A stretch of 64,000 nucleotides of DNA from Octopus sinensis (Eukaryota): NCBI RefSeq assembly GCF_006345805.1, contig NC_042997.1, forward strand, positions 142,786,001 through 142,850,000. The letters run 5' to 3'. The position numbers were made by a program, and so were the translations under genes. Below the pieces are notes generated by a model. It had not been told where the DNA came from, searched no databases, and saw only the letters and a list, made by a program, of their open reading frames with translations. This document shows positions 6,301-56,531 of the stretch, piece after piece. How positions within the stretch are numbered: the first letter of the stretch is position 1; each line of letters starts with the position of its first letter.

Positions 6301-7476
6301 AATGTATAACATTACATTGTGTGATGTTATTTAAAGTTAAGATTTTGGAGGATGTGAAAGTGAATAACTGAATGAATTTTTCAGCCTTTTGATGATATTT
6401 ATTACTTTCATTTGTGTTCGAATCACTGTTAAAAATAGCCTATCAAGCTTGTATCTCTATGCTATGTTATAATGACCTCGTATAGCACTGTATCTACAAA
6501 GCTATCCGAGGTATTAATATCCTTGGTATGTGGGAAGTAGTGAGGAAGCACAATATCAAGCAAGTTAAAAGCAACGAATGGAGAGATAGACAAAGAGGAA
6601 TAAAGCAAAATTTGATTTTTAGAAATGAGTTACTGTTAGGTGGTAAAAAATTTTATAGAAACTTGTTGAGGAAATAGTTTGTATTAACAACAACTAGTTG
6701 CTACAAGATATTTTTCTTTGAAGATTTTTTTTCCTCAGCATGGCCCAAAAATGTCTTGAGATGCAGATATTAAAACAGTTTGATCTTTTCATATTGGAAT
6801 CACATTTGCTTCTTATTTAATATTTAATTTAAAATAGAGATTATCTTTTCTACGTTATACGGTATATTGCCACATTATACTTTATATTGTTTTATTTCGT
6901 GTATTTCTATAATGTAAGTGTATTTTCGTAAAATAATACAGAATAACAACACTCTCATAAGTATGCTGTTTTCTTATTAAAATGTGCATTCTATATGAAT
7001 ATGTGAAACCAAGGAAAATATATTAAGGGTTGACTTACGGATATTAATGAAAGAGTATAGGTAACACTACATTACATTTAAGTAGTAGATTGGCAGAATC
7101 ATTAAAGCATCAGACAAAATTCTTGCAGCATTTAATTACAGCCTTTATGTTCTGAGTTCAGATCCCACAAAGGTCAGTTTTGTCCTTTTATCTTTCTACA
7201 GTCAATAAAATAAAGTACCAATCAAGTTCTGAGGTTTATTCAATATTCCTGCAATGTATCACAGATGTAAATAGAATTTTAATAAATGGCATTATCTTGA
7301 TAATTAAAAAGAAGTTTAAACGTCAAAAAAATTATGGTGGGTACATCTTTTAGAAATAGGATTTTAAAATAAATAATGCAATCTAAGGAATATATTATAT
7401 ATATATATATATATATCTGATGATTGCTAAATAAGGTACATTTCTTTCACCTGTTCATTGTCCTGCTTGGTTCTAG

Positions 7477-7512
7477 ACGTCGGCCCAGTATTGCCAGCAT
7501 TGGTGTTTCATT
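7477..7512 (+). CDS. SLC4A2: Probable 36-nt microexon of the SLC4 anion exchanger (xRRPSIASIGVS[L])
   Basis: Pyrimidine tract + TTCTAG acceptor and TT|GTAAGT donor. Phase 2-2 and open; TT joins the A starting exon 20498 to make Leu in frame. Confidence 0.7.
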
Positions 7513-8249
7513 GTAAGTACTGCATGTTCTTTCCCCTCTCTCGATATATAGAACTATTACTAACATCAACAACATATTAAATAATGTCATCAATAACATT
7601 CCCTTCTATTGGTGTTGTTTTTTTATTTACCATCCTTTCAAATTAGTCTTGGACAAATATTTGTTAGAATTTTTTTTTTTTTGGTATGGTTTTCATTTCT
7701 ATTTTTTGTGTTAGTTATAGATCAGAATAAATTACTACAACCCAAAAAAGAACCCCCATTTTTATTGGACTTTTATATCTAAAGAAAAAAAACAACTTTA
7801 AATAACAGATATCTGAGATGAATTCTTTATTCTGCTATTACTGCATTTAGTTAACCTCTGACTAGTCTAGACTCTCTCTTTCTCTGCACCAACTTTCATT
7901 TCTATCACCCTTGCCTTTCACCTGCATGTCATTCATTACAAAAATATATTCATAAACTCACCACCTCCTCTGTCTCATCTATATATATACTCTCTTTTCT
8001 CATTTCATTTGTTTACATGTGCTTCTGCAGTCATATTTCAATGATTTGTCATTGATTTTTGTTCAATCATGTTTGTTGAGCTGTCTAAATTCTTTCATAT
8101 CATTTTGCACACATTTAACTCCAAACTTTAAAATAAGCAACATTTTTTTTTTGTGTCTATCTCATTCAGTTTCTTTATTGTTATATAATTATAAATTGTG
8201 GAATATGTTCATATTACACACACACACATGTATATATACATACAGTTTG

Positions 8250-20497: not shown

Positions 20498-20750
20498 ACA
20501 TGTTACTCGAGAAAGGTCACTAATGAAAACCTTGTCATCAGCCAGTTTCACATCTGCTAGTTCTGTGACTAATTTAACTCGAGCTGGCCATCGTGGTAGT
20601 AATGCTGTACCAAATCTTCATGACCAGTCATCACACAATGTCCATACTCCTACAGGACTGACAGACATGAGTGGCTCTAAGCTTCCAGAAACATCTGTTG
20701 GGGAATATACAAAATTAGAAATGGCCAAAGTCGATATTGATAATAATATG
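20498..20750 (+). CDS. SLC4A2: SLC4 AE-like exon, Ser/Thr-rich cytoplasmic segment (HVTRERSL...VDIDNNM)
   Basis: TTTCAG acceptor and ATG|GTAAGA donor. 253 nt open; phase 0 end matches the next exon. Confidence 0.85.
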
Positions 20751-29653: not shown

Positions 29654-29950
29654 CAGTCTGGTAATGCGCACATTCCTTTGATATCTCCGGAGTTACAAAA
29701 AAGACGAGTTCAGGACATTTTAAAAAGGATACCAATAGGATCTGAAGCTACAACAGTGATGGTTGGATGTGTTGACTTCCTTCAAAAACCTGCAATGGCT
29801 TTTGTTCGACTTTCAGAAGGTCAAATCATTAAAAACTTTACTGAGGTTCCTTTACCTACTCGTTTTGTATCTGTGCTACTTGGTCCAGATAATGGAGAGA
29901 TGGACTACCATGAAGTTGGCCGCTCACTGTCCACTCTTATGTCAAATCAG
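29654..29950 (+). CDS. SLC4A2: SLC4 AE-like exon, band-3 cytoplasmic domain (KRIPIGSEATTVMVGCVDFLQKPAMAFVRL...YHEVGRSLSTLMSNQ)
   Basis: Classic band-3 cytoplasmic motifs. TAGCAG acceptor, CAG|GTAAGG donor, 99 codons. Confidence 0.96.
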
Positions 29951-30358
29951 GTAAGGATTAACTTTTTACGAAAGAAATTATATATGTCTATGTGTAAGTG
30001 TATGTGCTAAAAGTGAGGTCTTAAAAGCATTATGCTTATGCCTATACACTCACTGGGCCATGTCTCTGCCAAGCTTTCCCCACCTCTCATTTTCCTAACA
30101 CCTATCCCTCCATAACTCTTCTAACTACAGCACTATTCAACTACTGTAATCATATGAGAAGAGAATCTGCGTGTATTTCATCTTCTTTTGTGTTACCAGT
30201 TATCACTCCCTCTCTTTGAGATCACTTCCTTTTAAAATCCTTCTTTCATTCTCAATATCATCCTTTCCTACTCTATTTTCCATTTATCACACCTTTCTCT
30301 GTTTCCTGTTATCTCTTCCTTTCTTCTGAGTTACATCTTAGGACTGCCATATTTCATC

Positions 30359-30520
30359 TTTAACACCCTCTCATATTTTCTATCAACCTCAACACCCTCT
30401 TATATCTGCTATCACTCTCAATACCCTCTTATATCTGCTATCACTCTCAATACCCTCTTATATTTGCTATCACTCTCAACACCTCATATCTGCTATCACT
30501 CACAACACCTTATCATATTT
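30359..30520. repeat. 29-bp minisatellite, about 5-6 copies
   Basis: Unit CTCAATACCCTCTTATATCTGCTATCACT. Confidence 0.9.
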
Positions 30521-31136
30521 GTCACCAATAGCCTCCCCCATCACCTTTGTTCCCCACTCACTACAACCACCTCTATGTACCTCTGACTTTCATCTATGTC
30601 ACTGTCTATCTTTCCCTCCACTCTCCCATCCCACTTACAATCTCCATGTTTTCTGATCTATCCACTGGCATTAATATAATGCTGCTCTCTATCCTTCCTG
30701 TGCCTCCTCTATCTCTCTCACCTTATCACCCCAACTGTACTGGTTTGACACAATGCAAACTACAGGGCTGCATCAACCTCAAGTGTTGCTTTGACATAGT
30801 TTCTTTGACTGGATGTCCTTCCTAAAGTCATATTTTGAGGAGAGAAAAGCAGAATATCTTATTAAAAAAAAAATCTAATTTTGCACAGATATTTATTATC
30901 ACTATTTTCTTGCACTGTCCTATCCAGTATGTATCTATTTTTAGATATTTGTATGGTCTGTCTGTGTTAATTTTTTATAGAAGTTATTAGAAAAATGTGA
31001 GGTTTTCCAACACATTGTTCATACTTTCTGTTTTCCCAATAAGTTGTGTTAAATCTTCTCTAATGGTCTTTGGATGTCTTTCAATGAATATAGAAGTTGT
31101 TGAATCTTCATCTTCAACAGTTTATTTCTTATTTAC

Positions 31137-31515
31137 ATTATTTACATTTGACGGTTATTTGTCCTCATCTTGTTTGTTGTTAAAATGTTTTGGCTGATAT
31201 ACCCTTCAGCCTTCATCAGGTGTCTTGAGGAAATTTCGAACATGGGTTCTCATTCCTAAGATGCCCGTGGGCATATGGCGTAGCGCTTAAGAGCATGGGC
31301 TACTATCGCCAAGATTCTAAGTTTGATTCCAGGCAGTGACCTGAATGATAATAATAATAATAATAATAATAATAACATTGAAAAATACCTTAGGAATGAG
31401 GACCCAGGTTCAAAATTTCCCCAAGACACCTGATGAAGGCTGGAGAGTATATCAGCCAAAACATTTTGTTAACAACAAACAAGATGAGGACAAATAACCG
31501 TCAAATGTAAATAAT
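31137..31515. mobile_element. Inverted ~125-bp hammerhead-like arms around a tRNA-like head and (AAT)n
   Basis: Arms at 31137-31260 and 31389-31515. CTGATGA-A-GGCTG..CAGCC-AAAAC in both arms. Confidence 0.75.
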
Positions 31516-32208
31516 ATACATAATTCCACATCTCTTAAAAAAAAAGTTTGTTCCTTGTTTATGCGTAGTACTCAACAGAGATTGGAACTGTTACATAGAT
31601 TATACGAATAAATGAAAGAAAGTAGCACTCAATACATGTAGGTGAGAATATCTGGATTTTCATTGTTTTCATTTAACTAATCACCTCTTCACTACTGTAA
31701 CCTATGGATCAGAAAGTTATTTCCTTTCCAATGACTGATGATTAATATCAATACCTAATAATTCTAGAAAAATAATAACATTCTGTTAGTAATTATTGAA
31801 GATGTCTGAGGAAAGTTAATCATACATTTCTTCACTGAAGTTTGTAAAAAAGAAAATGGTCCAAATGTAGTTCAGAAAGACTTTAAGATTGAGTATGAAA
31901 TGGTCTCGGTCAGCAATAGCCTTACACAAATGTTACAGGAAATTGGATTTGAAGAACTTGTTGCAGGTGATATTCAGGAGTTTTTCATTATGGTGAGACC
32001 CTCACCTATGAACACCTTAAAGTGTTACCAGAGCTACAGGTACACAATTCAGAAAACAAAGAAGAGACTCCTCTATAGGTGGTTTTAACAACAAAGATCT
32101 TTTCTAAGGTTTGAGTGAAATAATTCATGCTTTTTCAAAAACCTTCAGAAAATTATCCAAATTTTAAAAGAAGAATAAAAGTTAAAAGATTTATAATGAT
32201 GGTATTAA

Positions 32209-32429
32209 CCCATTTGATACCAACCCGGCTGAAACCACCTCTGGCTCTATAGTACAAATGTCTTGTTTTCATAAGTTCTGGATGAAAATCTTCCACCAAA
32301 CCTTAGTCACAATTTATGTTCCTAACACTAACTTAATGATAACTAAGTTATTTTAATAAATTCTTTGTTATATTTAAAGTAATTGAAAGAAACATAGAGC
32401 ATCTCAAAATAAATACAGTAGCGAAAGGG
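32209..32429 (+). mobile_element. piggyBac-type non-autonomous element
   Basis: TTAA|CCC...GGG|TTAA. Copies at 34533-34733 and 58716-58936 (-); degenerate copy near 62200-62415. Confidence 0.85.
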
Positions 32430-32579
32430 TTAAACTGTTTATTGGGAAGAATTAGATGTTTGTGAAACAGCAAAGCAGTCAACATTTGATACAATTTTTT
32501 ATAAATACAAAAAGAATCTAATGCAATCAGTATTATCATATTTTTTTGGTCTTTGGGACATTTTTCTTGTGGCAAAAAC

Positions 32580-32662
32580 TAAAGAAAGTTTATACTTTTT
32601 TGATTGAATTTATATAATAGAAAATTATATAAATTCAATCAAAAAAGTATAAACTTTCTTTA
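32580..32662. repeat. Perfect 39-bp inverted repeat with 5-nt loop
   Basis: 32580-32618 is the reverse complement of 32624-32662. Confidence 0.95.
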
Positions 32663-33014
32663 TGTGTGTGTGTGCATGTTTTTTTATTGAATTAAATGTA
32701 ATTTTTTTGTTGAAAGGATTTTTTCTGAAAGTAGGAGCATTGTAGGCCTACAGAAATTAAGTGGATATTTCTTTCAATAATTAAAAGATCTTTGTTTTAC
32801 TTTCTTCTCATGGAGAACTGGTGAAGTAAAGAACTGGAGCATTTAAAATTTTTTAATCAAGGCAGTGTGTGTGTGTGTGTGTAATATTTTCCCATAGCTA
32901 GACATGTTTTCCACTGAAGATTGGAAATAGACAGCTTTACTTGTATAATGATAATGCTCATTTACAAACATCACATGATGTCAAGACAATGTGTGTGTAT
33001 ATATATATATATAT

Positions 33015-33096
<82 letters not shown>

Positions 33097-33318
33097 CTAC
33101 CACTACTACTAGCAAAATTTACATTTGCATTCTATGTTGAACCAATACTCATATAAAAATTGGATGTAAAATGATAATGTATTATTGCTGCTCTTGATAT
33201 CCAATTTCTTGTGTGTTTACTTTATTTCCTTACATTTTTGCCTTCTTCTCTCAGTCTTAATATCACTTCTTCTATGCTAGATAATGGCTTTCACCATTAT
33301 TTCTTTATTAATTTTTAG

Positions 33319-33511
33319 AACTTCCATGATGTAGCTTACCAAGCTGAAAGTAGGGAAGAATTTCTACATGCCATCAATGACTTCTTGACGGAATCTATAG
33401 TGTTGCCACCTGGTGACTGGGACCATAAAACTCTACTACCCATCATGGATATGGCTAGGAAACGAGCAAACTTACGATTGCGAAAAAAACAGAAGCAGAT
33501 GGAAAAAGAGG
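33319..33511 (+). CDS. SLC4A2: SLC4 AE-like exon (NFHDVAYQAESREEFLHAINDFLTESIVLPPGDWD...KE)
   Basis: FHDVAY and VLPPG motifs. TTTTAG acceptor, G|GTACGT donor, phase 0-1. Missing from the + strand ORF track. Confidence 0.96.
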
Positions 33512-35009
33512 GTACGTACAACTGCTGCAGTTTGGTTAAGGAGTCACGAGCCCGGTAAGTCTTCTGGAATAATTTGGTGACAACTTGGCTGTCTTTGTCT
33601 TGTTACCACTCCAATGAATTCTTACCAAAACTCTTGTAGCTTTTTTCTCAAACTGCTTGATTTTTTTTGTTGTTTTTTATTTTTTTTTTTTTACAACTTC
33701 TAGCAATATAAAAGCACTGAGATTTGCTGAAGCTTATTGCTGTTCTGCTGTGGTTTCTTAAAATTACTTTCTTGTTTACATATTTTTTTTAATTGCACTG
33801 AAGTTCATAATTTTCTTTCTCACTGTTATTTTTATAACTTTAAGCCTCTTACTTCTCCTCTACAGCCTATCATCTCAGGAATATAATTGCTACTGCCTTA
33901 TTTTAAGCTAAGACACTTCTCTAAATTATAAGAAAATTCTTAACAGAATTGACTTTATCTATCATCCATCTGTTGGTCAATAAAACAATAGTAACAGGTC
34001 AGTAATAGTAATAGGTCAGTTAAATCAACTATACCCCTTTCACTACAAACATTGGTCTTGAACCTAATCAAAATCCATACTAGCAGTTCTGAACCCCAAT
34101 TTTTGCTATGGACCTTTTTTTGAGGTAGGAGACCAAAGAGTAGCCCAAGAACTAAATAGTTCAATAATATCCATAGTCTCAGTTGGCAATACTTGGGGAT
34201 CCAACAGAAAAATACAATGATGATTGTTTGTGACAGAGCCCTAGGGAGGAGGTGCCTGAGAAAATGGATGGATGGATGGTTGGTTGGACATCTTTTGAAG
34301 CAAAATCACTTCTTTGTGACCACCCCTTCATAGATACTATTAGTTGGTAAATTTTAATATTTGCAGTGTCTATGAATTGCAACTCTATCATGTAAAAACA
34401 AAGTACTTTTTAGTATCTAATGAAAATAATTATTTCTATGGAGATAAAATTGTGCATTAGCCAACAAAATTTTGTAAAGATATGAAGCAAAAAGGACCTC
34501 TAGAAATTAACTTCTTTTTCATTGCTTTTTAACCCTCTTGTTACCAACCCGGCTGAATCTGGCTCTGAGTACAAATATCTTGTTTTCATAAGTTTTGAAT
34601 TAAAATTTTCCATCAAACCTTAGTCACAATTTATGTTCCTAACACTAGCTGAATGATTACTAAGTTATTTGTTATATTTAAAGTAATTGAAAGAAACACA
34701 GAGCATCTCAAAATAAATACAGTAACGAAAGGGTTAATGTCCACTTTTCCACACTTGCATGAGTCAGGTGCAATTTGTTGAGGCTAATTTTCTATGCCAT
34801 AATGTGCTTTCTGTCACCGACTCTCACCTGTTTTTAAGTAAGGTAATATATTTGAATGACCATCATGGAAGACTGGAAAGGAAGGACCACCACTTGCACA
34901 ACAGTGGCACTCATTTGCAACTGCTACACAGTGTCGAAATAAGAATACGGTAAAAAACAATAATACACACATGCAAACATATACATGTATGTGTGCGTGT
35001 ATATACATA

Positions 35010-35424
35010 TTAGGTTGTCAAGAAAGTTCTTGTGGAATTTTAAATTTTAGTTTTAAATTATGTATTTTCAAATTAATTTTCATTAAATTACAACGCTCGG
35101 CCGCACGTCACACAACTGACCCTGCAGAAGTTGAATGAATTGGGCTATGAAACTCTGCCTCATCTGCCATACTCACCAGGCCTCTCGCCTACCGATTACC
35201 ACTTTTTCAAGTATCTCGACAACTTCCTGTGTGAGAAATGCTTCAAAAACCAAGACAATGCCAAACACATCTTCAACAACTTCATCATCACCAGATCGCA
35301 GGATTTTTATGTGCAAATTAATAAATTTTTGTTTATAATTTTGTTAATAAAGTTTTGTTTGAGCCGAGATATGTGCATCTGAATTTAAAGGTTAAAAACT
35401 GCAAGAACTTTCTTGACAACCTAA
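35010..35424 (+). mobile_element. Internally deleted mariner
   Basis: TIR TTAGGTTGTCAAGAAAGTTCTTG at both ends with TA TSD. Encodes LPHLPYSPGLSPTDYHFF (mariner YSPDL motif). Confidence 0.92.
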
Positions 35425-35828
35425 TATATAAATAGGCGCAGGAGTGGCTGTGTGAATAGGCACAGGAGCGGTTGTGTGGTAAGTAGCTTCCTTACCAACC
35501 ATATGGTTCCAGGTTCAGTCCCACTTTGTGGCACCTTGGGCAAGTGTCTTCTAATATAGCCTAAAGATGACCAAAGCCTTGTAAGTGAATTTGGTAGATG
35601 GAAACTGAAAGAAGCCTGTCATATATCTGTATGTGCTTGTGTGACTGTGTTTGTATCCCCCACCACCACCATCACCACCATTGCTTGACAACTGATGTTG
35701 GTGTGTTTACAACCCCATAACTTAACGGTTCAGCAAATGAGACCGATAGAATAAGTCCTGGGGTGAATTTGTTCAACTAAAGATGGTGCTCCAGTATGGC
35801 CACAGTCAAATGACTGAAACAAATAAAA

Positions 35829-35885
<57 letters not shown>

Positions 35886-35998
35886 CCTGCTCACTTAGCC
35901 AGCAGGGTGGCGTCGTTCAAAGGCTAAAACAATGCAAACGCATTGTGACCAGTGATGTGTAGCAACATCTGATGGTCTGGTCGGTCACGTGATCACGT

Positions 35999-36054
<56 letters not shown>

Positions 36055-36469
36055 GATATACACAATGGACTTTTTTCAGTTTCTGTCTAGCATATCTATT
36101 TTCAAGGATTTGGTTGGCCAGAGGCTATAGTAAAAGACTAGAAGGCTCTTGCCTAAAGTTCCATGCAGTGAAACTGGACCCAAAACCATGTGGTTGGGAA
36201 GCAAACATCTTACCACACAGCCATACCTAATGTACATTGAATTTGCCAGAAAAATTCTTAGAAACATAAAATCTTTAGTAATGGCAAAATATTCCTATGG
36301 TTGGCACTTTATTCAGCATGAGGCATGTAAGTGATGCAAACTTGGAAGTTTTTCAACATCACATTGCTGTTCTTGTCAAACAAGGACCACTTCACCTGAC
36401 AATATCAAGAAGGTTGTGAGCATTTAATAGTAAGTAATAATACAACACTCAGTTCTATTAATTTCAAGG

Positions 36470-38400
36470 CTAATGAAATGAATACTGAGTTAGAGATACA
36501 TGAAAGGGTTAAATGTGCAAAAACCTACATTTAAGGACTACAAACAAAATATCATTGATAATTTATCTTGTAAGTTAACAAATCTGACCAAAAATGAGTT
36601 GAGAATATTGAGTAAAATTATCTTAGACACTTTTATTTTTAGAATTAAACAAATGACTGATTTACCATTATGGAATAACAGCATTTACATTATCAATTGA
36701 TTCAATAATATTAGTAGCAAGCATCTATGTAAATTTTTCCAGTTTGAGTCTATAAATAATTGTTTGCTCCAAAAAGCATGATTTTATATTGAGAATTATA
36801 TTTCGTGATTTTCATATTGAATTAATCATGCATGCAAAATCATTGCTTGCTTTCCAAAATGATCTATGGGTGAAAACAAAAATTATGTTAATTCTTTTGA
36901 TGTAGTCATAGGCAGCCTAGACTCAGCAGAAATTTGTTAGCTTATGGTGTTTATGCCTTATATTTATTACATATCAAATTTAATCATTTTCAATGTGATA
37001 TACATCAAGATGATGGGATCACTATTATGTGGAATAGAAATGTTAACCTTTAACACACTGCATGTTCTCTAGAATTGTTTCCCCTGCCACTGTCCTGCAA
37101 CTACAGGGGAGAAAACTCTATGGTGACATAATGCGCCTGCAGTGTGATAAAGGTTAAAGACATTCAGAAAAGATCCAGTTAAGCAATTTAAAGACTTACA
37201 CCTAAAAATTACTAACACAAATTTACAAATAGTTAATATTTTTATAAATTACCTTCGGTTCAGAAATAAATATCTTTAGGAAACCAAATAGAAATTGGCA
37301 GTGCAATAAATATAATTTCAAACCATTCACTTGCCCTTATTAATAATTTGGTGATAATGTTAGAATGGTGTTTGGTGCCCCTGCATGGCTGGTAGTTTAA
37401 TAACTGAAACCAATAATAATAGTATTTCATACAGATTGTTGTTTTTCAACAAAGCAGCCCTTTATTATTATGAAGTATTTAAACAATAGTTTTACAGATA
37501 AAATTTATTATAAAACTAATATGAATATTAATACTAAGACACTAAGAACAATAGAGAATGTAAAATTGTTTAACTTGATGCTCCAATCAGTTTTAATGTA
37601 AAAGTACTTTCCAAAAATGCTCATAGATATTATATGATTTTTAAATGGAAATAAAGTCAAATTAAGTTATAGGTGTACAAGTAATTTTGCTACAGAAATA
37701 GCAAACATTTCGAATAGCTTTATACATCCAGTTATTCCCGTTACATAGTTGTTTCAAATTCTCATTAAATAATGTATTCCTTTGAACACAATAGTTTATT
37801 GAGTGAAAGTATATATAACACAAATTATTCAGTTTTTAAGGATTATATTGGGTTGACTGAAAATCATTTTAAACATACTTTCAGAAACCCAGTAACATCT
37901 TTGGACACACGTTTGTCAACCTACATCTGGTCTTCAAAATATAACTGTATCAAATGCTGCAAAATTATTTGGAAGATATTAGAACATGCCAGACCTAATA
38001 ATCAGAGTAACTGTGGCTATAATCTTTACATTTCAGAGAAATCAAATATATTGCTCCATAGGAATTCTATATAAAACATGTCACTTCAGAGATAATGTCT
38101 TTTTGTCAACATGAATCGAAATATCTATGGAAATATTCTAAAATTCCCAATGGTGCAATTCTTAATAATATTTATACCATATTTATACATGTTCCAAACA
38201 AATCAAACCTCTTTTATTGATATGCATCCAACAGTCAATATTGTTGTCAAATTTCGATTTTTTGGTTGAAATATTTCAAAATGGCTAACAAAACCAAATC
38301 AAAACATTTTCTGTCAATAACATTTATAATCAATAGCTTCATTACAAAATTGCTTGAGAACTGGCAAAACATGAAACTTAATTTATGAAGTTTCTGCTTA
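36470..38400 (+). mobile_element. Decayed Penelope-like retroelement (RT-proximal region plus GIY-YIG endonuclease)
   Basis: TFKDYKQN..NLTKNELRILSKIILD..LWNNS at 36500-36700. IY..YIGLTENHFK..LSTYIW..WKIL..NLYISEK at 37772-38074. Confidence 0.75.
37047..37153. mobile_element. Small TTAA-flanked MITE nested in the Penelope relic
   Basis: TTAA|CCTTTAACACACTGCA ... TGCAGTGTGATAAAGG|TTAA. Confidence 0.8.
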
Positions 38401-40182
38401 AAACACACACACACACACACACACACACATGAAACGTTTAATGAAGGCTGAACATTGTCTTATTCCAGTAATATGTAATACCCTGTTTAATGCTACATTA
38501 TTTAATACTAATTAGCCAAAGCATGCTTAATTCAATAAGACAATAATACATTATGATAATAAGTAGCAAAACTTGTAAAAATTTCACGTTATATAAATTT
38601 TCTTACTCTTAGTAAGATGCATAAATTTATGTATCTTCATAACATTCTTTCATTTGGAAGAATCGTTACCACGTCAAACAAAATGCTTTGCAACATTTCT
38701 GCCAGCTTTACATTCTGAGTTCAAATGTCACTGAGGTTGACTTTGCCTTTTGTCCTTTCAGGCTCTATAAAACAAATACCAGTTGAGCACTTGAGTTGAT
38801 ATGATTAACTAGCTCTTTCTCTTCAAAATTTCAGGCCTTGTGCTTCTAGTAGAAAGAATTATGTTAATTATTTTTATGATACTTAGCTGGATAACAGATT
38901 AAGGTTAAGGGGATAAAAAAAATCAACTTGTTCATTCAGATGTTGCACTGTAGGAGCACAGAATCATTTCTGATGCCTTCTTTGAATATTTCTCATAATA
39001 TTACACAACTGTTATACATTCATGTTTTCTTATCATATTCGGTTCCCCTCTCTGTATTCTCCTCACTGTTCTTTGTTCATATTATTTTATCACACTTCTT
39101 TATATATACAATCAGCTCATTGTTTCCATCCATGTTCTTTCTGGGTTTCTCTTGGCCTTCTCTTTGACACCTTGACCCATATATATCTCTTTGACATCTT
39201 AACCCTGGTTGTGTTTTCGCAATGCAAAACCTGCTCCTGCTTGTTTGGACATGATCTCACTGGGAAGCAACTGACTGAGCATATGAAATATTCAATAGGT
39301 AGACTCCTGTAGCTAACAGTTGAATATTGTCCTTTTCTTCCAGATTGTGAAAGCTTACCATAATGTTTAATCTAAATACAGTGAAATTTTAAGACCTCAT
39401 TGTTTTATGGGCATATTTGTGTTAAGGTATCTTACACAATGGTATTCATTCATGCAAACTCTTCTTATTTGTTGGTTTTGTCTTAAACTTTCTCTTGTTT
39501 CATATCTTTGTTCTCTTTTCCTTTAGCTGTATCATCTCATTAAAACAACACCGTAGGCCCAAGATACAGTATATATATCTGTTTATGGTTGAGCTGACCA
39601 TCCTGAAAAGGTATCCTCTAGGACAAGCATCAAACAGATATTATTAACTTGAGCATGATCCATATGTATATTAATCCAAGGACCTCACTCCTTGGGTCAC
39701 AAATGAAGCCTGTTTTTTCGAAAATTCTTCATCTCTGCATATTTAGCACATTTATGGATGTAGTCTTTGACATCAATGAATAACCAAGGCTATCATGCTT
39801 CAAGCTTAAGGCAGTTGCATGTAGCAGCCAATTGAAAAGCATGCACCAATAATAACATACCAATGACATCTTTACAACATATATTCATAGTAACAGTTTC
39901 TTACCTTGATATTATACTAATACTTTTACAAGGAGTTTATATTATTTCCTGATGTTAACATTATGTTTACCATCTCATTAATACTTTCTCTACCCGACAC
40001 TCTCTTCTAAGTCCCTGAAATCAGTTTAAAACATTTTCAACTTTACTCTAGATATTCCAGTCACCTTATGGGTGTTGCTCATCACAAGTCAGGATGCCCC
40101 TCTGAAATGATAATTTAAAACAACCTCACATATACACAGCAAACACTCTACCTATCTATCTATCTCTCTACCTATCTATCTA

Positions 40183-40236
<54 letters not shown>

Positions 40237-42319
40237 TCAAAGTAAATTATAACATTTGATTGAAAAAAAGCATGAGTGAGTGAGAAAAAAAAAGAAATGC
40301 AATTGTTTAAGTAACAGAGTTAGAGCTAAAGATTTTGGGCCAAAATTTTAGTAGAAAGTTATGTTTATATATATATATTCATGGCATTATGCATGCCATA
40401 CAAAAGTCATATAGGGATGCAAATTGCCCATTTCTGATTATTTCTACCATGTTTTCACATAACTACACAATTTTTATGAATGTTCTTGCATAATAAGCAT
40501 GAATTTCTGTTTTCTAATTTATTTGACTTTCTTTATACAAGTTTACTTTCTTTCTCAAATTCAATTCACAGCATAGTGCACTTACTCTTGATTTCAATTG
40601 TCCATCTTTCAGCCGTAAAATCATTGCTGTTTTCTTTTTTTTTTAAATTGGATTAATACACTAATAAATCTAACTAGTGGTAATTGTGGAAATTCCACAG
40701 TTGCTTTGAAAACTATAAGATTGTTGGATGTTTATAGACATCCATGAATCCTGTCATTTCTTATGTATTTTGCCTGAAGCGTTGGATTTTTGAGATGATG
40801 TAAATCCACATGTAGTACTGAAGGTCCTGACCATGGAAAGAGCATCTTTGAAAACTATACTCTTTGTTATACATTTCTCATCTGTTCTGTTTAGAGAGTT
40901 ACCTTATTATCTTTACATCAGGAAGTGAATGTTCTCTTCAAAGAGCAACACACAGCTGTCCATGAGGAAATACTGGTTCATTTCTTTTCACCTTTCCTTT
41001 GTGATATTGGTATTAAAAATATTGAAAATGTATTGAAAGAATGATATATATATAGCAAATGCTTTTTGAAGGTTTAATCTATATATAGTATTATTCTGTA
41101 ATGGTCCAACTACATTGATGGTTTCAATAAGTCTTAATATGTGGAACTATTTTCATATCAAAGAAGGTGGTGAGCTGGTAGAATCGTTAGCACGCCGGGT
41201 GAAATGCTTAGCGGTATTTTGTCTGCCGTTATGTTCTGAGTTCAAATTCTGCCGAGGTCGACTTTGCCTTTCATCCTTTCGGGGTCGATAAATTAAGTAC
41301 CAGTTACACACCGGGGTCGATGTAATCGACTTGATCTGTTTGTCTGTCCTTGTTTGTCCCTTCTGTGTTTAGCTCCTTGTGGGTAGTAAAGAAATAGGTA
41401 TTTTGTCTGTCTTTATGTTCTGAGTTCAAATTCCACCGAGGTCAACTTTGCCTTTCATCCTTTCAGGGTTGATAAATTAAGTGCCAGTTGTGTACTGGGG
41501 TTGATCTAATTGACTGGCCTCCCTCCCCCAAAATTTCAGGTCTTGTGCCTAAAGTAGAAAAAACTATTTTCATATCAAAGACAATTGAACATGGGGGAGC
41601 TTTGACCTACAGTACCAATTAACAAAGTATACTAGCTGCCCCACTAAACACTGGATTCTTTAAAAAGAATGAAAATACGAAGGGTGCAGTTATGATGGCA
41701 GTCAAATGTGATATATTTTATTTTTCTGTTAGCTGTGGACTGAGTCAGGGAAAGATACAAAATTTGTTGAAAAAATCCACTTTTAGCAGAACTTAAATAG
41801 ACAATTCTTTGCTAATGATCTTGCATAATTGTCATCTTTAGTGGATAGACAGCGGGACTCACTGGAATAAATTTAGAGAATTACAAGCTTGCCAGGAACC
41901 ATTAGAAATTACCTTATTTGATGGCACAGATAAACGTTTTTTGGGGGGTTTTTTTCAAAAAAAAAAATGTGTCAGAAAATCACCCTGAGTCCTTAATGCA
42001 AAATTTGGCCTCTCATAATCTAATTTTGTCCCTGACACTCGCTACTATTGGCTAATTTTAATCCATAACTTAATTCCTTAATTATGATATTTATTATTGT
42101 TGTTGTTTTACTACTCAGAGCACTCAGTTTTGTTTGCTCTGGTTGATTCTATGAGAGCAGACAGCAGCCTGTTGTCAGATGTCTCACAGAGTCTCTTTCT
42201 GCACATTATAAGATTTGATATTTGGTTGTTAATTATATTGGAAGACATTCAACATCGTCGTCGTCATCATCATCATCATCTTTATCATTATTATTATTAT
42301 TTCATATACACACAATGAA

Positions 42320-42512
42320 TTAGACTGTTGGAGAAGGAAATTCCTAACTTTGGGCTACAACAAGCAGCCTTAGATGCCAAGAACCTTACTAAATATCTTA
42401 GCTGTCCCTAGTAATGCTGTTTTCTGGAGCTGCACTAAACTAGGTTTTATGCGCTAAAAACATTTTTCATGAATATGTGCTGCTGACCCTGGGGTGCATC
42501 TAATATGCCCAT
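42320..42512 (-). mobile_element. R4/Dong-like LINE 3' fragment
   Basis: PSLVQLQKTALLGTAKIFSKVLGI*, next to an (ATT)/(CAT) tract. Confidence 0.65.
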
Positions 42513-45013
42513 ATGTTTTTTATACTATTAAATGTAGTTTTGGGTTGATGAAGAAGTGAGATGTCAAGGAAGCTCATTTCTCTTGAGATTGGTGTGGATA
42601 GAGTCAAGGTGGCTAGCAGTGACATCAGTGGCAGGCTACAAAAATAAAAAGTGCTTTCAAGTGACTATAGAGGAAGTAATCAGGAAGGGTAATTAATTAC
42701 TAAGAAAATGAAACTATTTATTTGAGAAGGGTGAATGAAAATGTATTTATTAAGAAGGGTGAATCCTCAGAGATCAAAAGAACAAGGAGTGGGTAAAAAT
42801 AAAATGTTAAAATAGCAGAGCGCTAGGCTTGAAGAGATGGGAAGAGGCCTGAAATTTAGATCATCGTAAATTATCTGTTATATTGCTATAACTCTCCTCT
42901 GAGTAAGTTAAACCTGTCATTAAGTAATATCAATTAGTGTTTACAGCACCAATTGCCATAACAGGGTGCATACCTTCAAAAGTTACTACAATAAGTATTA
43001 ACCTGGGTTGGTAGGTTGGCAGAACTGCTAAAGGAGCCAGGTAAGATGTTTTGTGATATCTATTCCCGCTCTTTATGTTCTGACAGCAATGTTTGCAGGG
43101 ACACTGGTACTGAGATGTATTAGTCTGAACCCAAACCAAGGGCCATTTCCTAGGATAAATATCAGCTGTATGATAAGGGGACACTTGTATATATATATAT
43201 ATGTACAACTGTCGGTCTTCTTCAAAATGTCTTGCATAAGCCTGCACATATATGTGCAAATATACAGTCAACTTTCACTGACAGAGGTCCCTAACATAAT
43301 ACACTAAGTACCAGAAATATATAGAGGTCAGCAATTTTAAAAGACTCCTCCAGTTTAATTATAAATTTACTTTGTACTTAAGACCAAAAAATTAGGCTCA
43401 CCTTTTGTCTTTTAAATTAGTCTTAAGAATCACTTTTGGTGTACTCACTATGTCATATCACTTCTAGACTCCAATTTTCTCACAATATTATGCTATATGA
43501 GAATTCATTGCAAGGGTGCCAAATTATAGTATTGTTACAGTTGTGATCGAATGTACGTATAGTGTCAATATAGTCTGTAACAGATGAGTTACAAGCATAT
43601 CAAACTGCAAGTTCTTAAACCAAATAGTCATACAAAGTGAACCCCTAATATTATTGGTATGAGACATTTCGACACGGCCATTTTGACACCACCTATTTGG
43701 TAGTGCTGTTTCGACAATTGACTTATTTGACCTCAGACATTTCAATGTTTCTCTTGTCCCCTCTCTTTCTCTCTCTCCCCTCCCTCTCTCTCTCTCCCTC
43801 CTTCTCTCTCTCTCTAGCTACCCACTTACCTACCTGTCTATCAAACAAGTACCAGAACATACTATCATACTGGTTGAATGTCCAGTCAGCCATGTCAAAT
43901 CATCAGCATCCACATAGCTGCACCCCTAATATTGTTGCTGTAATCATACCGGTTCATATTTTCAATTCATTAATTACTAGAGTTTCTGTATTACTATGAA
44001 AGGTTTCTCTATAGTTTTTTTTTTTTTTTCTTAAATTGAAAAAACAAATTATTTCGGCACATATTCCAGTTTCTATAGTACATTCTGATACAAGTGTTAT
44101 GTAAATAAAACTTTGAAGAAAGCATTAGTGAAACTATAGTAGAATATATGTAATAATTACCAAATATTTTGTAACTCTTTCTCACTCTACTCTGGCTTGC
44201 ATCACAGCTGAGATATTTTCATTTGTAAAATGGCATTTTGTTTTTTTGTTTTTCCTTCAAAAATGAAAAAATAGCATGTTACTACAAAAAGACAGTCACA
44301 TAAATTAGTCATAGAGTAATGAAGGCATTCAAAGAACTCAGCATGAATCACATATTCTATTCTACAAATAGCTGTTGGCATTAGGGACAATGATCATTAT
44401 TTAATATCCTCTTTTCCAAGCTTGCATGGATCAGATGGAATTTGTTGAGGTTGATTTTCTATGGTCAGATGCCTTTCCTGTTGCCAACCCTCACCTATCT
44501 CCAGGCAAGGTAATATTTCCCCATGGCCTTACATGTTTTTGAGGAAGATTGGAAATAAGCAACATTGTTTTTACAGCCATACTGTCAAGACAAAGGTACA
44601 CTCAAACATGCCCCCCCCCCCACATACAAACACACAGTGAGCTTCTTTCAGTTTCCATCTACCATAATCCACTCCCATGGTTTAGGTCGGCTTAGGGCTG
44701 TAATAGAAGACACGTGACCAAAGTGCCATGCAGAGGGACCGAACCTGCAACCACTTGATTTGAGAGCAAGCTTCTTAACCACAATGCCATGCCTACACTT
44801 CACAGCCAAGCCTAATAACAGACAAAATCCGGTATATAGATATAAACTATGAACCAAATCTACTAAAACTACTATAATACAAATTCAATTAGTCAATAGA
44901 TGAACAATTAATCAACCTTGTTATATATTTCTTAAATTACTTCAAATACTTAACAAAAACTCAATATGTTTTTATCTACTTGGTGTCTGACTACGGAATG
45001 CTTTCTATTTCAG

Positions 45014-45220
45014 CGCTATTAGAAACCAAGGGAAAAGTTATATTGGATCCACTTTTGAGGACTGGTCGTCCGTTCGGAGGGCTCATAAATGACATAAAGC
45101 GCCGTTATCCATATTACCGAAGTGATATAACAGATTCATTGAATTTACAATGTCTAGCCGCCTTTGTTTTTATATTCTTTGCATGTTTGTCACCATGTAT
45201 TGCCTTTGGGGGGTTGTTAG
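45014..45220 (+). CDS. SLC4A2: SLC4 AE-like exon, TM1 ([22 protein letters not shown]...[11 protein letters not shown])
   Basis: Hallmark RTGRxFGGL and FGGLL. TTTCAG acceptor, G|GTAAGT donor, phase 1-1. Confidence 0.97.
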
Positions 45221-45496
45221 GTAAGTCTCACTTCTTTATATCTTTTTACGTCCTTCAATTTGTCAACATATGTCATAAACAATAATTAGTTTTTGGACAA
45301 ACAATTCACTATTGTTAAATGTTTCTGGTTCTTTGGTATACTCTATTTTTTTTATACAGAACTTTTATTACAAAAACTAACTGACACCATTATTTTTGTT
45401 ATTATTATGCTTGGCTATGTGTGTGCTCATATGTTTATAAGTCTAAATAATAATAATAATAATAATTATTATTATTATTATTATTATTACTACTAC

Positions 45497-45557
<61 letters not shown>

Positions 45558-45581
45558 AATAATATTTATTATTATTATTAT

Positions 45582-45957
45582 TCTATGTTTGACTTTTGCT
45601 TTACATTTGTACAAGTTGGCTCCAAGTCTCACCCAGAGACCTCAAGAGACAACAAGTTGGAAGTTCATGTTGGTGTTATGCCTAGGGTGCCATATATTTG
45701 GTTTTGTACTTAGTGTTGTACTAGTGAATGTTTAAGAAACCATAAGAAAATTATGTTTGTTTTAAAACTTGAGATTACATAGAAAGTATTTTGTGTAGGA
45801 TATGAGCAGTTCCCATGGGCACTATCTTTTGAATTTCTGCCATTTTGGGGTTTCCTGGTATCTGAGCTAGGTAGCAATCAGCCCCTTTTGCTATCATTCC
45901 CAGGGCACCTATGACAACAGGTATTGTTTTAGTCTTCAGGTTCCACATTTTGCTAAT
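45582..45957 (-). mobile_element. R4/Dong-like LINE 3' end inserted in (TAA)n
   Basis: KMWNLKTKTIPVVIGALGMI...IQKIVPMGTAHILHKILSM* (stop at 45775-45777). TAA repeats on both sides. Confidence 0.8.
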
Positions 45958-46188
45958 ATTATTATTATTATTATTATTATTATTAAGGCAGAGTCATTAG
46001 CACACTGAACAAAATGCTTAGCAGCATGTCATCCTGCGCTATATTGTGAGTTCAAATTCCACCAAGGTCGACTTTGCCTTTTGGGGTTGATGAAATAAAT
46101 ACCAGTCAAGTATTGCGGGGAGGGGGGTCAATGTAATCAACTAGACTCCTCCCAACAAATTCCAGGCCTTTTACCTATAGTAGAAAGG

Positions 46189-46226
<38 letters not shown>

Positions 46227-46689
46227 CATCACCATTATTATTCATTTACTTGTTTCAGTCATTTGACTGCAGTCATGCTAGAACACCACCTTTAGTCAAG
46301 CAAATTGATCCCAGGTCTTATTCTTTGTGAGCCTAGTACTTATTCTATCAGTCTCTTTTGCCAAACCGCTAAGTTACAGAGACGTAAACACACCAGCATC
46401 GATTGTCAAGCGATGTTATGTTGGGGGGACAAACAAAGACACACAAATAGATACATATATATATACGATAGGCTTCTTTCAGTTACCAAATCCACTCACA
46501 AGGCTTTGGTCAGTCCGAGGCTATAGTAGAGATGCACATATCATCATCCACTAAGGGACATGGCTCAGCTGCTTACAGTCAAACAACTGACAAGCAAATT
46601 TGTGGTATTGAGCAGAATATTTGCTGTAGCCCATCTTTTATACCAAGACAAAACAATGTACACATAATACTTCCAGTCAGTTTTTATTA

Positions 46690-46720
<31 letters not shown>

Positions 46721-47294
46721 CATCAACAACAACAACCCAGACGTTTTCATAGCAGGCATCTTGATAGACATTTACTTATACTAATTTATTATTATTTTTA
46801 ACATTTACTATTGAAATTAACTCAAAAAAATTATATTTATGTGCATAATTATTTCCTGTTAGCTTTTTAATATTTCCTTCATTAAATATGTTTTTGGCAC
46901 TAAATGTATCAGCTGTTTTGCATGCAAATGGTGTCTTTGAATTATGCCATTTCTAATCAAATTATGTTTATACAACAAATGTGTATGTATCTACTAATTC
47001 TTTCATAACTACTCTGGTAAGTACAAAAAAGGCTTTGCTGATGAAGTCTGAATAAACCTGATCTACTCTTGGAGTTGTTTCCTGTACTTGTCAGAAAAAG
47101 AAAAATAACATTAATTGTTGACTAATATTTTTTTCTTACCATTATTATTTATAGCTCAATTTTTAATGCTTATTGCATAAATTCTTTAACCACTTATGAA
47201 ATTATATTTACATTTCATTACATCTATTTGCCACCATTGTCTTTTATTCTCCATAAAATAACCTGTAAATTAGTAAATATGTAATAAAAATACG

Positions 47295-47477
47295 TACCAT
47301 ATTTTAATGTGTATAAGGAACCCTTTTTTGTCAAAAATTAGGTTAAAAAAATATGGGAGTTTCTTATACAAGGATAGTATTATAATCCCTTACAAAACCT
47401 TTTTTCCAAATTTTAAGCCCCCAAAATTAAGGGGTTCCTTATACATGAGGGTTCTTTATATATGTTAAAATACAGTA
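47295..47477. mobile_element. Tc1/mariner-superfamily-like MITE
   Basis: TACCATATTTTAATGTGTATAAG ... CTTTATATATGTTAAAATACAGTA. A related, interrupted copy lies at about 58568-59012. Confidence 0.6.
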
Positions 47478-47998
47478 ATTTACAAGAAGTAATAATGCAG
47501 CTCACATTTTCACATTTACATGCTTGTTTCCTTTACACTTCAAAGGAAGAGGATCAACTGTCCATCCTGAACCATAGGTGACTCATAAGACCAGTTTCCT
47601 GGGTTCTATGGTGCATGTATTTTCCCCTGGGTGGAATGCTGGTCTGTTGCAGGATACTTATTTTTGCTAGCTGAGTGAAATGAAATGTTCTGCTCAAAAT
47701 CACATTGCATCACCCTGACTACTAAACCACACACCTCCACCCTTTGCACTTAAATACCTGATATTCAGAAATCTCAGTACAAATTCAAATAAAAATTCTG
47801 CTTTTCTACATCTAAATGTAGATGTATATGTGAAAACATGAGCTGCATCTCTATATACTCATTGCACATCACACATCTTCATTCAGTCACACACACACAC
47901 ACACACACATACACACACACATAATTGATAAAATTATTTTAGATATCAAACATATTTATCTTAATTGAAATCATTCATTCTTTATTAGAGATCTTAAG

Positions 47999-48031
<33 letters not shown>

Positions 48032-48083
48032 ATATTATATGTGTATATATATATGTATATATATATGTATGTATATATATATG

Positions 48084-48116
<33 letters not shown>

Positions 48117-48177
48117 GTATATATATATGTATGTATATATATATATGTATGTATATATATATGTATATATATATATT

Positions 48178-48260
<83 letters not shown>

Positions 48261-48880
48261 CCAGGATCCCTGGTCTGGTGGTACGTAAAAAGCACTATCC
48301 GACTCGTGGCCGATGCCAGCACCGCCTCGACTGGCTTCCGTGCCGGTGGCACATAAAATACACCAATCCGACCGTGGCCGTTGCCAGCCTCGCCTGGCAC
48401 CTGTGCAGGTGGCACGTAAAAAACACCCACTACACTCACGGAGTGGTTGGCATTAGGAAGGGCATCCAGCTGTAGAAACATTGCCAGATTAGACTGGAGC
48501 CTGGTGCAGCCTTCTGGCTTCCCAGAACCCCGGTCGAACCGTCCAACCCATGCTAGCATGGAGAACGGACGTTAAACGATGATGATGATGATGATATATA
48601 TATATACTTCTAAATTGCTACAATAATTGCAATAATTAATTAGTTTGATATCCTGATGAATATACACCAAAAGATGTCAAAAAGGCATTCACTTCGATTC
48701 TATCAATGATGTGTCTTTTGTTTCCTCTTCATTGATTCAAATATCCTGAGTTCAATATTAGATATTGTATTGAATATACACTTAGAGATATAAGATATTT
48801 GAAATTCTAATTTCTATTAATTATGTTTCATTATTGCATATGATTTACAAGTTTCTTGATATGAACTTGTGTATTGAAAC

Positions 48881-49168
48881 ATATTTTGTTGTATTTTTGG
48901 TGGTTCATTATGCCAATAATAAACACATGCACTGGTTTTGTTTCACTTCTTTATTTTTATCTATCAATTTGTTCAACCTTTAACTAATTAACTAATTGAT
49001 TGTCTGATAGCTGATTGATTGAGTGATTGACTGAACAATTAATCAAACAATCAATTAGTTAATGTTTAAATGGTTAATCAATTAGTTAATAAAAATAAAG
49101 AAGTGAAATAGAAACTGTGTATGTGTTTATTACTGGCATAATGACCCTCCCAAGATACTATAAAATAT
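48881..49168. repeat. ~290-bp imperfect foldback
   Basis: TCATTATGCCAATAATAAACACATGCAC..TTTCACTTCTTTATTTTTAT mirrored at 49088-49144. A single arm recurs at 61490-61545. Confidence 0.8.
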
Positions 49169-50242
49169 CAGTTGTGTGTTTTTCATTTCTTTACTATTGA
49201 TTCAAATAATAATTTTTGGTAACATTTAAACATGCTATTTGAAAACTTTCTAAATTGTCTTTACTGTTATGTTCTTATTCTCTGCACTTTGCTGTCCTTT
49301 CTTTTATTTTTCTCTTTTTAAAATTAATGAATGCTATTATTACATTTTGTTACTTTTCCTTTGTATACACTTTCTGAATGAAACAGAATTTCGATGTTGA
49401 TTTTTAAATTTTTTGCCTTTGCTGCAGTGACACTTATAACTCATGATATATAAATATATTTTCCAAAACACTTAAAAGCATTCTCTTCACATACATATTT
49501 ACTTACTTAATTAGTTATTTGTAACTATCCAAAGGGTTTTTTAACCTACTATTTGCACGCTTGTTTATAGCTTTACCTACTTCAAGTTTCACTTTTTAAA
49601 ACAAATTATTTCACGTCTCTCAAATTTTCTAAACTCTAATATCATATACAATATTTACATCAAAGTATTTTTAGCAGTATTCATTTTTAAGTTTAATGTG
49701 TTATGCCATGCATTAATATCTAAACAGTGATGCAATATTTATAGTTGATTCAAGGCGGCGAGCTGGTAGAAACGTTAGCATGCTGGGCGAAATGCTCGGC
49801 AGTATTTCGTTTGTTTTTATGTTCTGAGTTTGAATTCCACCAAGGTCAACTTTGCCTTTCATCCTTTCAGGGTCAATAAATTAAGTACCAGTTGCATACT
49901 GGGACTGATCTAATTGACTGGCTCCCTTCCAAAAATTTCAGGCCTTGTGCCTAGAGTAGAAAAGAATATTTACAGTTGATTTAATGATTCCAAATTAACT
50001 CACAAAACAGTAAGCTAAATATCAACATTAGAAACTCAGAAGTTTTGTGTGGCTGTATGGTAAGAAGCTTGCTTCGCAACCACATGGTTCCGGGTTCAGT
50101 ACCACTGCATTGCACCTTGAACAAATGTTTTCTACTATAGCCTCGGGCCGACCAAAGCCTTGTGAGTGGATTTGGTAGGCAGAAACTGAAAGAAGCCCAT
50201 CGTATATATATTATATATATATATATATATATAATATATATA

Positions 50243-50284
<42 letters not shown>

Positions 50285-54330: not shown

Positions 54331-54361
<31 letters not shown>

Positions 54362-56495: not shown

Positions 56496-56531
56496 TATTA
56501 TTATTATTATTATTATGTTTTATTTTTACAG

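What the first reader, a model, noticed from the sequence alone, without database searches (positions are those of the whole stretch)
7441..7564. 36-nt microexon adding an RRPS PKA site, with UGC, RBFOX and QKI motifs
Seen: symmetric phase-2 exon with a GTAAGT donor, encoding RRPSIAS. TGC at 7464-7466 just upstream of the acceptor; TGCATG at 7521-7526; ACTAAC at 7559-7564. Known: R-R-x-S is the PKA consensus; upstream UGC marks SRRM4/eMIC-dependent neural microexons; downstream UGCAUG (RBFOX) and ACUAAY (QKI/How) promote inclusion. Inference: a tissue-specific splice switch that puts the exchanger under cAMP control.
Basis: partly seen in the sequence, partly recalled or inferred. Interest (0 to 1): 0.75.

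Follow-up and report, generated by a model that had tools for sequence, protein, structure and literature searches.

The report
Triple kinase-site mini-exons, octopus exchanger
An octopus chloride/bicarbonate exchanger gene carries three copied 36-base optional exons, two of them seen spliced together, each encoding a predicted protein kinase A site in a likely floppy loop, so splicing would set how many such sites the transporter has; tissue control and any effect on transport are untested.

Summary
The exon at 7477-7512 is real, but it is not alone. It is the third (E3) of three paralogous 36-nt, phase-2 exons in a 108-kb interval of an octopus AE2-like SLC4 gene; E1 and E2 lie 20.6 and 11.4 kb upstream, outside the window. 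They encode RKSSIASIGAS, RKSSISSLGAS and RRPSIASIGVS, keep identical GTAAGTA donors, differ mostly at third codon positions (8 of 12 versus 6 of 24) and have unrelated flanks, which points to old, selected copies. Contigs of 2 of 4 runs laid (two studies) join E2 to E3 across the 11.4-kb intron, so the acceptor is used and the copies are not mutually exclusive. The proposed 7512-to-20498 junction was not seen: both contigs run on into the intron. None of 50 mollusc proteins fetched holds the motif; cephalopod isoforms skip all three. Each copy fits [R/K][R/K]xS-hydrophobic and sits in the variable loop that is a known SLC4 splicing hot spot. PKA control and tissue specificity are untested. Verdict: new variant of known kinds, moderate interest.

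The parts
7477..7512 (+). E3: 36-nt phase-2 exon, third of three paralogous copies; encodes RRPSIASIGVS plus split codons. Its partners lie upstream, outside the window, all on the + strand of G000:C1: E2 142782040-142782075 (L003:6040-6075; RKSSISSLGAS), E1 142772824-142772859 (L004:6824-6859; RKSSIASIGAS), cassette B 142742383-142742433 (51 nt), cassette A 142721005-142721085 (81 nt), and constitutive exon U ending at 142698519 in phase 2
   Evidence: acceptor used, joined to E2, in contigs of X3 and X8; E1, E2 (no transcript evidence for E1); A, B and U
7441..7476 (+). Weak acceptor region of E3: pyrimidine tract, TGC at 7464-7466, AG at 7475-7476; AG-free zone 39 nt
   Evidence: (5.5 bits versus median about 12 for the 18 sites the matrix was trained on)
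7513..7519 (+). Donor GTAAGTA, identical in E1, E2 and E3; read through, it gives Leu then a TAA stop
   Evidence: use of this donor not observed
7521..7526 (+). TGCATG (RBFOX-type element), +9 from the donor
   Evidence: unchanged in organism B contig; binding untested
7559..7585 (+). ACTAAC with a TAAY half-site within 20 nt (QKI-type bipartite element; the bipartite form is recalled)
   Evidence: binding untested
7576..7731 (+). ATTAAA (7576) and AATAAA (7726), possible intronic poly(A) signals; bear on the terminal-exon rival
   Evidence: such hexamers occur 1.0 and 1.3 per kb in this interval
20498..20750 (+). Exon D: constitutive phase-2 exon that closes the cassette cluster
29654..61014 (+). 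Further exons of the AE2-like SLC4 gene in the window (rest of the cytoplasmic domain and most of the membrane domain)

Best explanation
The 36-nt exon is the last of three duplicated, frame-preserving exons of an octopus AE2-like anion exchanger gene, shown spliced to its neighbour copy and likely also to the next constitutive exon, so that transcripts would carry none to three 12-residue modules, each a predicted PKA-type phosphorylation site, in a likely disordered cytoplasmic loop. Shown: three homologous exons of equal length and phase; E2-to-E3 splicing; skipping of all three in the isoforms on record; the insertion point at the break between the two conserved halves of the N-terminal domain. 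Inferred: the E3 donor is used (it is identical to the used E2 donor while the flanks have diverged); the motif is selected as a basophilic kinase site (R, S and the +1 Ile are invariant, the Lys/Arg swap kept the charge, the one radical change fell on the free position); inclusion is likely tissue-regulated, most plausibly in excitable cells, with E3 under its own RBFOX/QKI/eMIC-type elements; phosphorylation would tune trafficking, partner binding or the coupling of the N-terminal domain to the membrane domain, not the transport core. My odds by step: exon real 0.95; internal cassette 0.8; selected kinase site 0.6; neural or muscle bias 0.55; measurable PKA effect on exchange 0.35.
For: Paralogy: 30/36, 25/36, 23/36 nt identity; leave-one-out rank 1 for each of the 3 copies; a pattern made from the copies matches 3 places in 2.7 Gb, these three, reversed control 0. 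Selection: variable columns 8 of 12 third positions versus 6 of 24 first and second, Fisher p = 0.02; 300-nt flanks no more alike than random intron pairs in 6 of 6 comparisons. Splicing: contigs in X3 and X8 (two studies) start at 7477 with a loose end equal to the last 30 nt of E2. Skipping: 0 of 50 fetched proteins hold the motif; among 11 cephalopod proteins that span the junction, 4 go U to D, 5 include A only, 1 B only, 1 A plus B plus five residues. Position: alignment to human AE2 breaks at 431 and resumes at 504; this matches, by inference, the variable region Nt-VR2, largely invisible in AE1 crystals and host to NBCe1 cassette I (passages of PMC4664831); Drosophila AE also skips an exon between two conserved zones (passages of PMC2901199). 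Motif: consensus [R/K][R/K]xS-hydrophobic (passages of 10.1101/091231). Regulation: GCATG within 50 nt of the donor at 3 of 5 cassettes versus 1 of 18 constitutive donors, p = 0.02, post hoc; an SRRM_C (eMIC-type) exon and 4 STAR-dimer matches are in the genome.
Against: No E3-to-D junction was seen; both junction-bearing contigs, and the two others, continue unbroken past 7512 into the intron. The junction rests on one contig per run at depth 3.15 and 3.69. No transcript evidence for E1. No evidence of the copies outside octopods: two protein searches with the motif profile found nothing (68 candidates, none scored; 0 of 1.84 billion), both weak for a 12-residue motif. E1 has no, and E2 only a distant (-27), upstream TGC, and neither has TGCATG within 200 nt. 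A consensus site already exists in a constitutive exon. In vertebrate SLC4s, cAMP effects have been reported without a change in transporter phosphorylation, and cassettes in this region often have no known effect (passages of PMC4464172 and PMC4664831). RBFOX presence was not shown (control silent).
Confidence: 0.55

Rival explanations
1. E3 acts mainly as a composite terminal exon: the acceptor is used, the donor is read through to an immediate stop, and the RNA is polyadenylated in the intron, giving a short N-terminal-only protein or a dead-end transcript that lowers exchanger output.
For: Both E2-E3 contigs read through the donor with no branch to D. Read-through gives Leu-stop. ATTAAA at 7576 and AATAAA at 7726 follow E3, and neither E1 nor E2 has such a hexamer within 500 nt. 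N-terminal-only products are reported for NBCn1, NBCn2 and NDCBE (passages of PMC4507446).
Against: The donor is identical to the used E2 donor although flanks diverged. The two hexamers together occur about 2.3 per kb here, so one or two in 500 nt are expected. The runs were found by words that are mostly intronic, which selects for unfinished RNA; X1 is unspliced on both sides and X1 and X3 also cover the intron at about 7790-7900. A cut in this loop would lose the second half of the intertwined core (PMC4664831 passages).
Confidence: 0.15
2. The three exons are a real in-frame insert but are used as one block, and serve as a basic, serine-rich spacer or binding surface, or as a site for another basophilic kinase (PKG, CaMKII, PKC, RSK; recalled overlap of preferences), not as a countable PKA switch.
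For: The only junction seen joins two copies; no partial combination was observed. Residues beyond the kinase consensus (S7, G9, S11, L12) are also invariant. An earlier AI note on another gene of this genome found duplicated microexons mostly used together (e1-8669018; not tested here).
Against: The copies differ in cis-elements and acceptor strength (-2.3, 3.2, 5.5 bits), which suggests separate control. The substitution pattern fits the PKA consensus position by position.
Confidence: 0.25
3. The exon is a cryptic or decaying element picked up at low level by noisy splicing, without function.
For: Low contig depth; absent from all 50 proteins; splice signals rank only 30 of 490.
Against: Three copies that kept length, phase, donors and peptide while flanks diverged, with a third-position bias; the same junction in two studies.
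Confidence: 0.04

Closest known systems
SLC4 N-terminal optional cassettes (NBCe1 cassette I/alpha in Nt-VR2; NBCn1 cassettes I, II, IV; NBCn2 cassette A; the 67-codon skipped exon of Drosophila AE/CG8177)
   Same: Optional in-frame pieces in a variable part of the SLC4 cytoplasmic domain; NBCn1 cassette II binds calcineurin, so signalling modules in such cassettes have precedent (passages of PMC4664831 and PMC2901199).
   Different: The review passages seen report no such cassette for vertebrate AE1-3; here there are at least five cassettes at one junction, three of them copies of one kinase-site module. No sequence homology to the vertebrate or fly cassettes was tested.
Tandem duplicated exons (mutually exclusive substitution events)
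   Same: Adjacent homologous exons of equal length and phase, old, in one gene (abstract start and passages of PMC9741552).
   Different: Not mutually exclusive: E2 splices to E3, the copies are 9.2 and 11.4 kb apart and add up instead of substituting.
eMIC (SRRM3/4, Srrm234)-dependent neural microexons
   Same: Short, symmetric, weak acceptor with a nearby UGC; Drosophila targets have a median of 31 nt (section 10 of PMC8797185); an SRRM_C-type exon is in this genome.
   Different: 36 nt exceeds 3-27 nt; the flanking introns are long, unlike fly targets; the AG-free zone is ordinary; only E3 has a close UGC; neural inclusion is not shown.
Multi-cluster graded phosphorylation (Ci/Gli clusters; CFTR R domain, recalled)
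   Same: Several similar kinase modules in a flexible region whose number can grade an output (abstract start and passages of PMC9445324).
   Different: There the number of sites is fixed in the protein and occupancy varies; here the number itself would be set by splicing. An analogy only, no homology.

Membership tests
SLC4 Na-independent anion exchanger (AE1-3 type) gene | Band_3_cyto plus HCO3_cotransp domains, closer to AE2/AE3 than to Na-coupled members | tested here: met
   PF07565 and PF00955 above cut-off; best PDB sequence match human AE2, 854 bits, versus 617 for NBCe1
SLC4 Na-independent anion exchanger (AE1-3 type) gene | Cl-/HCO3- exchange activity | not testable with these tools
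   needs expression and flux assay
Alternative internal cassette exon | Acceptor used in spliced RNA | tested here: met
   E2-to-E3 junction in 2 of 4 runs
Alternative internal cassette exon | Donor used to a downstream exon | tested here: inconclusive
   4 of 4 runs read through 7512; runs were selected by mostly intronic words, and contigs show presence, not absence
Alternative internal cassette exon | Skipping isoforms exist and frame is kept | tested here: met
   11 of 11 cephalopod proteins spanning the junction lack it; U, A, B, E1-E3 and D are all phase 2
Tandem duplicated exons | Homologous adjacent exons, same length and phase | tested here: met
Mutually exclusive tandem exons | Only one copy per transcript | tested here: not met
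   E2 joined to E3
eMIC/SRRM4-dependent neural microexon | Length 3-27 nt | tested here: not met
   36 nt; definition from the search listing of PMC7935315; fly targets have a median of 31 nt, so regulation by eMIC stays possible
eMIC/SRRM4-dependent neural microexon | UGC close to a weak acceptor | tested here: met
   TGC at -13, acceptor 5.5 bits; 1 of 17 constitutive acceptors but 63 of 350 pseudo-acceptors have such a TGC
eMIC/SRRM4-dependent neural microexon | Long AG exclusion zone | tested here: inconclusive
   39 nt versus a median of 36 for 17 constitutive acceptors
eMIC/SRRM4-dependent neural microexon | Neural-specific inclusion that depends on the eMIC protein | not testable with these tools
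   tissue and library of the runs are not on record; regulator exon present
RBFOX- or QKI-enhanced exon | UGCAUG and ACUAAY(+half-site) just downstream of the donor | tested here: met
   +9 and +47; 0 of 18 constitutive donors have TGCATG within 50 nt or ACTAAY within 100 nt
RBFOX- or QKI-enhanced exon | Regulator present, binds, and changes inclusion | tested here: inconclusive
   4 STAR_dimer matches; Fox-1_C no match with a silent control; binding not testable
PKA substrate site | [R/K][R/K]xS followed by a hydrophobic residue | tested here: met
   3 of 3 copies (consensus)
PKA substrate site | Phosphorylated by PKA in cells, with an effect | not testable with these tools
   needs kinase assay or phosphoproteomics

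The most novel reading that the evidence does not exclude
Octopus built a splice-counted phosphorylation dial by exon duplication: each of three independently regulated mini-exons adds one PKA-primed, CK1-extended module (S-x-x-S spacing is in all three; CK1 priming is recalled) to the exchanger's regulatory loop, so cell types choose zero to three modules and thereby how strongly cAMP moves their chloride and pH set points.
Probability: 0.2. Interest if true: 0.7.

Novelty: new variant of a known kind. Interest (0 to 1): 0.45.

Why it matters
AE-type exchangers set intracellular pH and chloride, and how cAMP reaches SLC4 transporters is incompletely understood (passages of PMC4464172). A natural series of isoforms with zero to three near-identical kinase modules at one spot would give a clean test of whether this loop regulates SLC4 transport and whether site number grades the response. 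It is also an example of short-exon duplication used additively, not as either-or substitution, and of exons absent from the protein models that could be fetched here. If only a block-included spacer, it is an annotation fix.

Tried and rejected
Run search: no RNA holder listed; 9 holders are only guessed to be RNA. Only 4 of 24 listed runs were laid. The second laying, aimed at the start of exon D, gave no data, so what joins D in these runs stays open. Organism B contig (X9): 0 differences in 7484-7512, 3 substitutions and 2 deletions listed in 7513-7682; too few to show exon-specific constraint. Protein searches for the motif: nothing; the query profile held intron-derived positions and a 12-residue motif has little power, so this is no evidence of absence. 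RefSeq isoforms of octopus species did not turn up in the clusters listed, so the exons may already be annotated there. A 15-nt exon matching the five extra squid residues was not found by pattern. A scan for further cassettes by splice-site score was not discriminating: known cassettes ranked 30, 56, 67, 119 and E1 fell below the cut-off; one training acceptor was probably mis-picked. No duplicated block larger than the exons was found around the copies. Mutually exclusive splicing rejected. A CT-rich tract after all three donors was noted but 2 of 18 constitutive donors reach similar values. Paper searches listed no paper on these exons; the library lacks most subscription journals, and no supplements were read, where cephalopod exon tables could list them. 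Earlier-finding look-ups near, by words, by sequence and in relatives were empty. No structure or complex prediction was run: a 12-residue insert in a variable loop would not be informative.

Full report
Observation. The window is G000:C1:142786001-142850000. The exon at 20498 translates to a stretch identical to an Octopus vulgaris AE2-like protein. These proteins carry PF07565 and PF00955, match human AE2 best among solved structures and map exon by exon along the window.

The cassette cluster. I fetched 110 kb upstream and mapped the gene. The constitutive exon U ends in phase 2 about 87.5 kb before the window; exon D starts in phase 2 at 20498, 108 kb later. Between them lie cassette A (81 nt) and cassette B (51 nt), both phase 2 and both known from proteins. 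Of 11 cephalopod proteins that span this junction, 4 go straight from U to D, 5 include A only (one of them a model that then ends without D), 1 includes B only and 1 (squid) includes A, B and five more residues. Cassette A is present or absent among isoforms of gastropods and bivalves as well (26 proteins span the site).

Transcript evidence. Four of 24 listed runs were laid on 7300-7900. In X3 and X8, from two studies, one contig each begins exactly at 7477 with a loose end that is not the intron. The 30 letters shown of that loose end equal, letter for letter, the last 30 nt of a previously unnoticed exon 11,401 nt upstream. So the acceptor is used. This is what partly spliced RNA looks like, and the runs were selected by mostly intronic words, but it also fits a terminal exon. 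Depth is low (3.15, 3.69), and tissue and library are not on record. A second laying at exon D gave no data.

Three copies. A matrix from any two ranks the third first among 347,928 positions (42.7, 38.7 and 26.3 bits versus at most 16.0). A pattern drawn from them matches only these three places in the genome. Variable columns fall at 8 of 12 third positions and 6 of 24 first and second positions (p = 0.02), and the flanks are no more alike than random intron. I infer old duplications kept by selection on both peptide and splice sites. Because E2 joins E3, they are additive, not mutually exclusive. E1 has no transcript support here.

The peptide. PKA prefers [R/K][R/K]xS followed by a hydrophobic residue (passages of 10.1101/091231). 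All three copies fit. The changes between copies respect it: Lys to Arg at -2, Ser to Pro at the free -1 position, serine and the +1 Ile invariant. A second serine three places on is also invariant, a spacing I recall as CK1 priming; this is untested. The insertion point lies where the alignment to human AE2 breaks, between residues 431 and 504. I infer that this is Nt-VR2, described as largely invisible in AE1 crystals and as host to NBCe1 cassette I (passages of PMC4664831). An AE2 residue of the interlock between the cytoplasmic and membrane domains, E508, lies just after that gap (passages of PMC11271275), which offers a route from loop phosphorylation to transport, by inference only. Against a simple on/off story: a consensus site (RRMSF) is already in a constitutive exon, and cAMP effects on NBCn1 and NBCe1-B were reported without a change in phosphorylation (passages of PMC4464172).

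The splicing motifs. All five cassettes have weak acceptors (-2.3 to 5.5 bits versus a median near 12 for the 18 training sites, which inflates the contrast). The TGC is weak evidence: 63 of 350 pseudo-acceptors have one, though only 1 of 17 constitutive acceptors does; a UGC is found in about three quarters of SRRM4 targets and is not strictly required (passages of 10.1101/2024.09.17.613571). TGCATG so close to a donor has a 1.3% background, and GCATG within 50 nt occurs at A, B and E3 but at 1 of 18 constitutive donors (p = 0.02, post hoc). ACTAAC with a half-site occurs at E3 alone. E1 and E2 lack this set, so the copies may be controlled separately. At 36 nt E3 fails the 3-27 nt definition (search listing of PMC7935315) but is near the 31-nt median of fly eMIC targets (section 10 of PMC8797185). 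The genome holds an SRRM_C-type exon and STAR-dimer matches; the RBFOX search was uninformative.

How it most likely works. The transcripts on record skip the cluster or take A or B. In some cell types, likely excitable ones, splicing would add up to three 12-residue basic, serine-rich modules to the loop, each a predicted PKA-type site, and phosphorylation would tune trafficking, partners or domain coupling (confidence 0.55). Rivals: block inclusion as spacer or other-kinase site (0.25), terminal exon with intronic polyadenylation (0.15), noise (0.04).

Relation to what is known. It works like known SLC4 N-terminal cassettes and belongs to the tandem-duplicated exons, but not to their mutually exclusive class (abstract start and passages of PMC9741552). 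It resembles an eMIC target without passing the strict size test. Eight paper searches listed nothing on these exons, and two motif searches of protein collections were blank; both have limited reach, octopus RefSeq models were not seen and no supplements were read. Other papers seen only as passages: PMC2901199, PMC4507446, PMC9445324 (analogy only), PMC6713507 (not relied on). I rate it a new variant of known kinds, interest 0.45; the splice-counted dial has probability 0.2 and would merit 0.7.

Noticed in passing
proteins P0024, P0040, P0042, P0044, P0045 versus P0037, P0038, P0041, P0046, P0047: Oyster isoforms differ by a two-residue insert at the same U junction, a possible 6-nt microexon or shifted splice site.
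   Followed up: no
P0009, between cassette B and exon D: The squid protein has five extra residues (KSLPR) there; no matching 15-nt exon was found by pattern in the octopus interval.
   Followed up: partly
window 29651-29656: Tandem acceptor (TAG then CAG): P0002 has an extra Gln that P0001 and P0004 lack.
   Followed up: partly
window 45014-45220: This exon, the start of the membrane domain, is missing from models P0001 and P0004 but present in P0002, P0003 and P0009; likely a model error.
   Followed up: partly
G000:C1:142721005-142721085, G000:C1:142742383-142742433 and window 20498: Cassettes A and B and exon D all begin with codons for His-Val after the split codon, perhaps traces of older acceptor or exon duplications.
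   Followed up: no
L014 (G000:C11337:11167-11301, minus strand): An exon matching SRRM_C above the Pfam cut-off, on a high-numbered contig; likely part of the octopus Srrm234 gene.
   Followed up: partly
window 22818-23702, minus strand: Open frames that look like pieces of a LINE reverse transcriptase (resemblance recalled, not searched).
   Followed up: no
proteins P0020, P0031, P0034, P0035: Snail isoforms carry optional inserts after the end of exon D, a second variable junction in the same loop; the matching octopus intron (20751-29653) was not scanned.
   Followed up: no
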